Shown: positions 11,001 to 27,462 of the stretch, in pieces
How positions within the stretch are numbered: position 1 is the stretch's first letter
Layout of the letters: each line of letters starts with the position of its first letter
Source: Octopus sinensis
Taxonomy: Eukaryota
DNA length: 46,889 bases
NCBI RefSeq assembly: GCF_006345805.1
Contig: NW_021829899.1
Location: forward strand, 1 to 46,889
Reading direction: 5' to 3'
The notes under the pieces: model-generated
Seen by the model: only the letters and a program-made list of their open reading frames with translations
What the model was told of the DNA's origin: nothing
Databases searched by the model: none
Translations under genes and position numbers: made by a program

Positions 11001-11058
11001 AATAAACACTCAAGCAGATACATGCACACACACACATACACACATGTATACCAATATG

Positions 11059-11089
<31 letters not shown>

Positions 11090-11120
11090 GATATATATAT
11101 ATATATATAATAAATAAATA

Positions 11121-11790
11121 TTAGGGAATAAATCCAAATTACAGGGAAAAATCAGATTTAGGATTAATCCAATTTTATACTAAAAATTATATAATATTAT
11201 TAGAGACAAAACCACTATTTTGCAAACCAAACAAGGAAAGACTTAATCATACATAAAATTTTAATAAAAAGTCAAAAAAACCGCCACTACAATTGTTTCT
11301 TGTCTTGATCGACAATCTTCAGGTGGACTTCTCCAATCTAAAATATCAATATTTTAAAATATAAAAATAATAATTTTAAAATAATTAAAGTATTAATGAA
11401 AAAATATAATAAATAATCTATTTATAACCTATATATGATCCATATAATCAATATATAACAATATATAAACTAAAATAAACCTATCAGCAATTAATATAAA
11501 ATATAAAATATAAAATATAAAATATAAAACAAAACAAAAAATAAACTATATATACACCCATACACATATAACTAATTATATATAACCATATATAAATACA
11601 TACACTAAATCACACACACCTATATATATATCCCTATACATACACATAAAAACGTCTAGGCAACGATAAATAAATAAAATAGCTAAATACTTCAACACAA
11701 TACTTATTCATACTCCCTCACACACACATACAACCCACATTCCCGCTCTAGAAACGGACATCACTTAAAATAGTGGTTTTTGTCCAACGA
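11121..11790 (-). mobile_element. Penelope-like non-autonomous element with hammerhead motif and short inverted end
   Basis: Embedded in (TA)n, contains an intact hammerhead. GACAAAACCACTATTTT (11205-11221) recurs inverted at 11767-11784. Confidence 0.6.
11284..11326 (-). ncRNA. Type I hammerhead ribozyme motif, canonical core
   Basis: Minus strand: CCAC-CTGAAGA-TTGTC(GATCAA)GACAA-GAA-ACAATTGT-A-GTGG. Stem I 4 bp, stem II 5 bp, palindromic helix III, GUA cleavage triplet. Confidence 0.85.
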
Positions 11791-11802
11791 ATAATATATA
11801 TC

Positions 11803-11861
<59 letters not shown>

Positions 11862-11879
11862 CTATATACACGCACACAA

Positions 11880-26878: not shown

Positions 26879-27462
26879 CCTTTTCTACTCTAGGCACAAA
26901 GCCCGAAGTTTTTGTGGGAGGAGGTAAGTCGATTAGATCGACCCCAGTACGCAACTGGTACTTAATTTATTGACCCCGAAAAGATGAAAGGCAAAGTCGA
27001 CCTCAGCGGAATTTGAACTAAGAACATAAAGACAGACGAAATACCTATTTCTTTACTACTCAGAAGGGGCTAAACACAGCAAGGACAAAAAAGGACAGAC
27101 AAACGGGTTAAGTCGATTATATCAACCCCAGTGCGTAACTGGTACTTATTTAATCGACCACGAAAGGATGAAAGGCAAAGTTGACCTTGGCGGAATTTGA
27201 ACTCAGAACGTAGCGGAAGACGAAATACCTATTTCTTTACTGTACGCAAGGGGCTAAACACAGAAGGGACAAACAAGGACAAACAAACGGATTAAGTCGA
27301 TTATATCGACCCCAGTGCGTAACTGGTACTTATTGAATCGGCCCCTAAAGGATGAAAGGCAAAGTCGACATCGGCGGAAATTGAACTCAGAACGTAGCTG
27401 CAGACGAAATACCGCAAAGCATTTCGCCCGGCGTGCTAACGTTTCTGCCAGCTCGCTGCCTT
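26879..27462 (-). mobile_element. SINE family Y, internally trimeric copy
   Basis: Three ~180-bp units with GAAAGGATGAAAGGCAAAGTCGACC; head AAGGCAGCGAGCTGGCAGAAACG on the minus strand. Confidence 0.88.

What the first reader, a model, noticed from the sequence alone, without database searches (positions are those of the whole stretch)
11121..11790. Fully canonical hammerhead in a separate (TA)n-embedded element
Seen: at 11284-11326 (minus) all catalytic core positions are intact, stems I and II are perfect, helix III is the 8-nt palindrome ACAAUUGU and the site is GUA. A 17-18 bp inverted copy of a downstream segment lies at the far end. This is the best candidate in the window for an active ribozyme. 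Established: palindromic helix III allows dimeric hammerheads. Inference: a PLE pLTR-derived element distinct from families A and B.
Basis: partly seen in the sequence, partly recalled or inferred. Interest (0 to 1): 0.7.

Follow-up and report, generated by a model that had tools for sequence, protein, structure and literature searches.

The report
Hammerhead end of Hydra Penelope retroelement
This is a real hammerhead-ribozyme motif, but it is the cut-short end of a common Penelope-type jumping gene, with 750 identical motifs in the same genome; it is predicted to cut RNA only as a pair, and the places where the family's copies stop may record that cutting.

Summary
The motif is there (11284-11326, minus strand) and is not chance, but it is not fully canonical: stem II closes with U-A rather than G-C, and helix III is predicted to form only between two copies. 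It is one of 750 identical motifs in this genome. The 670-nt element is a 5'-truncated, intron-retaining 3' end of a Hydra-clade Penelope-like retroelement. The parent has a TERT-like RT, a C-terminal GIY-YIG nuclease and 5.5-7.7 kb units. The distal inverted piece is a second, 32-nt arm. This copy lacks the start site and is likely silent.

Family-wide, a 23-nt first exon is joined GT-AG to an acceptor about 10 nt upstream of the hammerhead. Spliced copies (1202 exact matches) outnumber intron-retaining ones (694). Copy 5' ends pile up about 20-fold just 3' of the predicted cut. That may be a footprint of self-cleavage, but a reverse-transcriptase stall fits equally well.

This scan already reported Hydra hammerheads and spliced head-to-head copies on other DNA of this genome. 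Verdict: a new member of a known kind.

The parts
11284..11326 (-). Type I minimal hammerhead motif (stem I 4 bp, stem II 5 bp closed by U-A, palindromic helix III, GUA); predicted cut between 11288 and 11287
   Evidence: 750 exact copies in G000, control 0
11327..11337 (-). Start of exon 2: spacer between the splice acceptor and stem I, with a 2-nt insertion not seen in the other 29 loci
11338..11771 (-). 3' part of the element's retained spliceosomal intron (1.1-2.7 kb in parents); acceptor AG at 11339-11338; 5'-truncated at about 11767-11771
11188..11283 (-). Sequence from the hammerhead to the 'short' 3' end point, where one arm of head-to-head pairs ends
11121..11187 (-). 67-nt 'tail' up to the 'long' 3' end point; in parents it lies just upstream of the ORF (ATG 239 nt after the predicted cut in L084)
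11767..11798 (+). Inverted second arm, about 32 nt, ending at the short end point; joined to the main arm through a 5-nt microhomology at 11767-11771
11054..11121 (.). (TA)n target flank at the element's 3' end
11794..11868 (.). (TA)n target flank beyond the inverted arm

Best explanation
The stretch 11121-11798 is a 5'-truncated, intron-retaining copy of the hammerhead-bearing end repeat (pLTR) of an abundant Hydra-type Penelope-like retroelement, sitting in a (TA)n tract with a short inverted second arm, and it was likely made by target-primed reverse transcription from two start points 67 nt apart. Shown by sequence: the parent is laid out pLTR - ORF (RT plus C-terminal GIY-YIG) - long non-coding region - start site - 23-nt exon - intron - hammerhead - two end points. 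Inferred: (1) the nuclease nicks both strands of a TA tract; (2) two cDNAs start at the short and long points and are joined head to head by microhomology wherever they stop; (3) RNA started at the pLTR is spliced and gives short intron-less copies, while read-through RNA keeps the intron and gives long copies such as this one; (4) the hammerhead cuts weakly, only as a dimer through helix III and probably with protein help, and the cut or the folded motif is where many cDNAs end. This copy has no start site and no partner hammerhead, so it is likely silent.
For: Parent: ORF-bearing copies lie upstream of the same end, with open frames of 859, 748 and 762 aa. Hammerheads flank the ORF 7746 nt apart in L082 and 7568 nt apart in L084, and 5509 nt apart in L083, where the second core is mutated. 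The model (pLDDT 85.9) has telomerase RTs as its top four Foldseek hits. The C-terminal domain matches I-TevI (Z 10.2, rmsd 2.5, 90 aligned), T4 EndoII and UvrC. The DKT, CxCX5C, CxxC and CxH motifs of PMC8557442 section 11 are present. Intron: donor alleles in unspliced copies have matching joined copies that obey GT-AG, including use of the next GT where the first is mutated. Joined form 1202, acceptor form 694 exact matches, controls 0. Spliced copies reach at most 23 nt upstream of the join; 7 of 30 reach exactly 23 and none goes beyond. Two end points: 57 of 59 head-to-head rows pair one short with one long arm, as expected from the two RT start sites and tail in PMC11167929. Constraint: 34 of 34 core and stem positions are identical across three subfamilies whose flanks are 83-94% identical.
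Against: No RNA data were examined, so transcription, splicing and cutting are inferred from DNA copies. Covariation did not exceed the shuffles (206 of 500 as high); positions 10.1/11.1 are unpaired in 26 of 160 rows. The conservation test is partly circular, because the sister hammerheads were picked with a core descriptor, and only 5 of 20 ORF loci showed a hammerhead. Pfam, NCBIfam and PDB sequence searches did not name the parent's domains, and Foldseek alone missed the nuclease. No tree was built with the published Hydra proteins. Units of 5.5-7.7 kb are longer than all 27 listed Hydra consensus sequences (at most 3045 bp).
Confidence: 0.87

Rival explanations
1. The hammerhead does not cut appreciably in vivo. 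The pile-up of copy ends just 3' of the site marks where reverse transcriptase stalls at the folded motif or slips on the U-run, with joins biased to AT-rich microhomology. This rivals step 4 only.
For: None of the 38 arms stopping below the cut maps exactly to it; most stop 5-25 nt 3' of it, around the U-run (one arm mapped to -1 by the looser method). At the start site, by contrast, 7 of 30 end exactly. Among 16 TA-joined element loci, 7 run 3-10 nt past the cut. PMC11167929 found ribozyme mutants did not affect insertion in vitro and found no reads ending at the cut. An unchecked scan note (e1-9589730) read a similar offset in another family as a stall.
Against: The AT-rich, U-rich intron shows no such pile-up: 25 arms pass more than 100 nt of it. 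Only 2 of 63 arms stop inside the structured 43 nt. 9 of 16 TA-joined loci begin at 0 to +2 (P about 0.004 against an even spread, with known bias), and in L300 both arms stop at the cut. The predicted fold is weak.
Confidence: 0.5
2. It is a separate non-coding retrozyme or solo-pLTR family that multiplies on its own RNA.
For: The window copy is non-coding, and most sampled arms are short and non-coding.
Against: Most close copies extend 5' into a longer element that carries the ORF. No tandem hammerhead units were seen. The 5' boundary at 11767 is private to this copy.
Confidence: 0.04
3. The inverted arm arose by self-priming on an antisense template, as proposed for rotifer Penelope elements (PMC3846280).
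For: Head-to-head layout with palindromic junctions is common here, and this copy retains the intron.
Against: Many head-to-head pairs are precisely spliced and stop at the sense start site, which points to a sense, spliced template. Arms differ in their 3' end in 57 of 59 rows, whereas a fold-back copy would be expected to repeat one end.
Confidence: 0.08
4. This particular copy is an active ribozyme with a role for the host.
For: Its core and stems are intact.
Against: Intactness is shared with 749 other copies and fits youth (98% substitution identity to a close copy). By eye, the ORF list of the 47-kb contig shows low-complexity and retroelement fragments but no host gene. The start site is missing.
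Confidence: 0.03

Closest known systems
Hydra clade of C-terminal-endonuclease Penelope-like elements (Craig et al. 2021, PMC8557442; read: sections 11, 12, 15, passages, supplement parts for Files S1, S2 and snippets of the proteins)
   Same: RT plus C-terminal GIY-YIG; DKT, CxCX5C, CxxC and CxH motifs; hammerhead near the 3' end; (TA)n targets; inverted 5' copy and tail. Listed Hydra hammerheads also often lack G10.1-C11.1 and have short self-complementary helix III.
   Different: A different family from Hydra-1_Obim (different hammerhead and protein, compared by eye). KWK in place of RWK; Asn-rich insert; units 5.5-7.7 kb against at most 3045 bp; 67-nt tail against 30-40; a kilobase intron in the pLTR is not mentioned for Hydra in the sections read.
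[quoted passage not shown]
   Same: Type I topology, 4-bp helix I, palindromic helix III, dimer model; in D. virilis the intron end also abuts helix I.
   Different: No G10.1-C11.1 pair and no clear bulged base before stem II; stem II is 4-5 bp, not 7-8; very uniform among copies.
Penelope of Drosophila virilis (Schostak et al. 2008, PMC2377424; passages)
   Same: Short first exon and an intron in the leader, next to the start site; intron kept in transposed copies.
   Different: Intron 75 bp there, 1.1-2.7 kb here with duplicated exon-1 units; here intron-less genomic copies are abundant.
PAc Poseidon element of Anolis (Frangieh et al. 2024, PMC11167929; read: parts 1-2 of 4)
   Same: Two internal RT start sites defining the tail; both strands primed; AT-rich targets; protein-assisted hammerhead.
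   Different: A different clade; its start sites lie inside the ORF, here upstream of the ATG; no genomic cut-site pile-up reported in the parts read.
Animal non-LTR retrozymes (Li, Clavereau, Pollet, bioRxiv 10.64898/2026.07.22.740005; read: part 1 of 5)
   Same: Type I hammerhead, non-coding copies, PLE origin.
   Different: No tandem units with a hammerhead in each; the copy belongs to a coding parent.

Membership tests
Hydra-clade PLE | Single ORF with telomerase-like RT and C-terminal GIY-YIG nuclease | tested here: met
   TERT top hits; I-TevI Z 10.2, rmsd 2.5, 90 aligned
Hydra-clade PLE | DKG modified to DKT | tested here: met
   SDKTRNLY in parents
Hydra-clade PLE | CxCX5C linker before the nuclease | tested here: met
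   CTCRDKSNC; C5, C7, C13 invariant in 55 sequences
Hydra-clade PLE | CxxC and CxH around the conserved E and N | tested here: met
   C111, C114, E117, N131, C140, H142 at 90% or more; L081 itself has CRN, while L082 and L043 have CRH
Hydra-clade PLE | N-terminal RWK motif | tested here: inconclusive
   KWK at the aligned place; homologues have RWK or RWR
Hydra-clade PLE | No CCHH motif in the nuclease | tested here: inconclusive
   No such conserved set among the listed columns; judged by eye, without CCHH-bearing controls
Hydra-clade PLE | Hammerhead near the 3' end; insertion in (TA)n | tested here: met
Hydra-clade PLE | Generally shorter than 3 kb (descriptive in the paper, not a diagnostic motif) | tested here: not met
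   5.5-7.7 kb between hammerheads against at most 3045 bp
Hydra-clade PLE | Placement in the Hydra RT cluster by phylogeny | not tested
   Published proteins were compared by eye only
Type I minimal hammerhead of PLEs | Core CUGANGA, GAAA, NUH with helices I and II | tested here: met
   155 of 160 rows keep CUGANGA (rows selected by a fuzzy motif)
Type I minimal hammerhead of PLEs | Palindromic positions 15.2-16.2 and loop 3 | tested here: met
   8-bp self-duplex -6.4 kcal/mol; variant -5.8
Fully canonical hammerhead | G10.1-C11.1 pair | tested here: not met
   U-A 88, A-U 46, unpaired 26 of 160
Type I minimal hammerhead of PLEs | Self-cleavage, as a dimer | not testable with these tools
   Needs an in vitro assay
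Non-LTR retrozyme | Tandem non-coding units, each with a hammerhead | tested here: not met
   Single motif in the window; coding parent

The most novel reading that the evidence does not exclude
The genome keeps a record of three RNA templates of one Penelope-like element: read-through RNA with the intron, spliced RNA from the start site, and the hammerhead's 3' cleavage product. About a third of sampled arms stop just after the cut, which would be genomic evidence that a PLE hammerhead cuts in the germ line and that cut RNA is still reverse-transcribed. It would also explain intron retention: only start-proximal RNA is spliced.
Probability: 0.35. Interest if true: 0.62.

Novelty: new member of a known kind. 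Interest (0 to 1): 0.36.

Why it matters
The motif and its setting are known: hammerheads in the pLTRs of Hydra-clade elements are published, one of them from an octopus. The copy itself is ordinary. The family matters because PMC8557442 calls both the hammerhead's function and the meaning of intron retention unknown. Here thousands of young copies map a start site, a splice join, two RT start points and a stop zone at the predicted cut. That gives exact coordinates for a 5'-end mapping experiment and a cleavage assay.

Tried and rejected
- Rfam: no hammerhead family in the local scan at E<=10, nor among the 150 of 280 whole-window rows shown.
- Folding z-score: no signal.
- Covariation: not above shuffles. 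The apparent U-A to A-U swap at 10.1/11.1 is undercut by 26 unpaired rows. An extended stem I behind a CG bulge fits two subfamilies but not the third, and was left as unproven.
- Domain names by sequence: Pfam, NCBIfam (one weak RT hit in 1 of 11 proteins) and PDB gave nothing useful; Foldseek missed the nuclease and VIA-align found it.
- More diverged ORF loci: 15 of 20 showed no hammerhead within the fetched 10 kb.
- Sequencing runs: no RNA holder listed. No reads were laid, so expression and RNA ends stay open.
- My first reading of the 3.5-5 kb region as a plain 3' UTR was dropped: its distal 1.1-2.7 kb is an intron.
- A sharp wall of copy ends exactly at the cut was looked for and not found; 1 of 17 loci was a chance match and was dropped.
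- Six arms (L205-L210), tandem duplicates of one insertion, were dropped before the rate estimate.
- Paper searches showed no listing on spliced genomic PLE copies or a cut-site pile-up. The library lacks most subscription papers, and Arkhipova et al. 2003 was not read.
- One search found no paper quantifying the 10.1-11.1 effect.

Full report
Observation. On the minus strand, 11326-11284 reads stem I (CCAC), core CUGAAGA, stem II (UUGUC, 6-nt loop, GACAA), GAA, the palindrome ACAAUUGU, A17 and GUGG. A descriptor with an exact core found this and one weak AT-rich hit in the window. Resampled windows gave a strict hit once in 400. It is not fully canonical: 10.1-11.1 is U-A, the site is GUA, and the monomer fold with helix III has a predicted probability near 1e-4, while the 8-bp self-duplex is -6.4 kcal/mol. 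A local Rfam scan returned no hammerhead family. The inverted piece is real (11205-11221 against 11767-11784) and runs on to about 11798.

Copy number. A 166-nt query gave 1480 candidates in the own genome (2.7 Gb; likely an octopus, from earlier scan notes and recall, not tested). The 39 scored non-self matches are 96-97% identical. The exact 43-mer occurs 750 times, the 16-nt 3' half 2183 times, and a 20-mer just downstream 6038 times; controls were 0, 2 and 0.

Parent. Most close copies continue 5' of the window's boundary. Of 20 regions of 10 kb, 4 held pieces of one ORF. A protein search gave 154 matches among 150 scored of 4914 candidates. Open frames of 859, 748 and 762 aa were seen, and hammerheads flank the ORF 7746 and 7568 nt apart in L082 and L084, and 5509 nt apart in L083. 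The predicted structure (pLDDT 85.9, 102 sequences) has telomerase RTs as its top four hits. The C-terminal 154 residues match I-TevI at Z 10.2, then T4 EndoII and UvrC. The motifs that PMC8557442 gives for the Hydra clade are present: DKT, CxCX5C, CxxC and CxH, with KWK for RWK. That paper's supplement lists 27 Hydra families of at most 3045 bp and their hammerheads, many without G10.1-C11.1. Its octopus family has another hammerhead and protein (by eye). Sequence libraries did not name the domains.

Constraint on the motif. Among 160 deduplicated rows from the 190 loci then held, 155 keep CUGANGA; 2 rows are probably unrelated matches. N7, loop II and 10.1/11.1 vary (U-A 88, A-U 46, unpaired 26), and 18 rows carry a helix III variant that still self-pairs through G-U. 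One representative each of three subfamilies shares 34 of 34 core and stem positions with flanks 83-94% identical (P about 0.001-0.003 for the two distant pairs, 0.10 for the close pair). The sisters were picked with a core descriptor, so this is partly circular. Covariation on 18 variants did not exceed shuffles.

Intron. Many copies lack the sequence 5' of window 11337 and carry a short exon instead. In long copies that exon is followed by GT, and the acceptor AG is at 11339-11338. Several donor alleles have matching joined copies, including use of the next GT where the first is mutated. Intron lengths are 1.1-2.7 kb, with duplicated exon-1 units. Exact matches: joined 1202, acceptor 694 (subfamily A patterns only, not total counts). 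In 30 spliced loci the match upstream of the join is 12-23 nt, 7 at 23 and none beyond, which I read as the start site. D. virilis Penelope has the same order, with a 75-bp intron whose end abuts helix I. So 11338-11771 is retained intron, and this copy has lost the start site.

Two end points. Copies end at about 11188 or at 11121, each followed by (TA)n. In head-to-head pairs, 57 of 59 rows join one short and one long arm. This fits the two RT start sites and both-strand priming shown for an Anolis element. The window copy follows the rule: main arm long, inverted arm short, 5-nt microhomology at the join. Spliced head-to-head pairs argue against the antisense self-priming proposed in PMC3846280.

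Where arms stop. I took the first 100 listed places of the 6038 (one contig, 0-31 Mb; 101 arms). The classes were 25 intron-retaining, 31 spliced, 5 with a whole hammerhead but another 5' end, 2 stopping inside the hammerhead and 38 stopping 3' of the cut. After dropping 6 tandem duplicates, 21 of 84 arms stop within 16 nt 3' of the cut against 2 of 63 in the 43 nt of the motif, about 20-fold per base. None of the 38 maps exactly to the cut. Genome-wide, 17 loci join (TA)n within 12 nt of the cut; 16 are true copies, 9 begin at 0 to +2 and 7 at +3 to +10. TA-joined arms in the U-run are commoner. The pile-up is real, but it has no sharp wall. Cut RNA with trimmed GC-rich ends and an RT stall at the folded motif both fit; I give them about even odds. 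PMC11167929 found cleavage dispensable in vitro and saw no RNA ends at the cut.

Earlier scan notes. Notes on other DNA of this genome already describe Hydra hammerheads and spliced head-to-head copies. One (e1-10332739), seen before my junction analysis, gave the lead of a capped front end copied twice; I tested the start-site ceiling but not the cap. One notes a stop zone 6-8 nt after the cut in another family. They are unchecked and are not counted as support. Nothing was noted for this place or by sequence.

Verdict. A real but ordinary motif: a truncated end of a new Hydra-clade family, likely silent at this locus. The family-level anatomy, above all the stop zone at the cut, makes the open question of hammerhead function in these elements testable. 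No RNA reads were examined, and supplements of the other papers were not opened; they may bear on whether spliced genomic copies are already described.

Noticed in passing
window 2565 (+), 41829 (+), 41444 (-), 33390 (+): Other hammerhead-like cores of a different sequence family; 41444 and 41829 lie head to head.
   Followed up: no
window 29499 (+), 38206 (+): Two copies of another repeat with a degenerate hammerhead-like core.
   Followed up: no
L082 / L131 (G000:C11, about 54.12 Mb): Four TTAGGG telomere-type repeats sit right at a splice donor inside one subfamily B copy; seen in 1 of 30 loci of that subfamily.
   Followed up: partly
L081, L082, L083 ORFs: Asn-rich low-complexity insert between RT thumb and nuclease, as described for rotifer Penelope ORFs.
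   Followed up: no
L081, L045, L084: About 1 kb of the region after the ORF has the opposite base skew and is inverted between copies.
   Followed up: no
L225 (G000:C1:8143700-8145600): Both arms of a head-to-head pair carry the same non-element sequence joined at the splice acceptor, as if a foreign exon had been spliced on and copied twice.
   Followed up: no
L084 near the ATG: A donor-like AG-GTAAG follows the fourth codon of the ORF; a second intron was not tested.
   Followed up: no
window 26925-27413: 184-bp tandem of an abundant SINE-like repeat, 2.7 copies.
   Followed up: no
G000:C1:3733320-3736816 (L203-L210): Four tandem duplicates of one short head-to-head insertion.
   Followed up: partly
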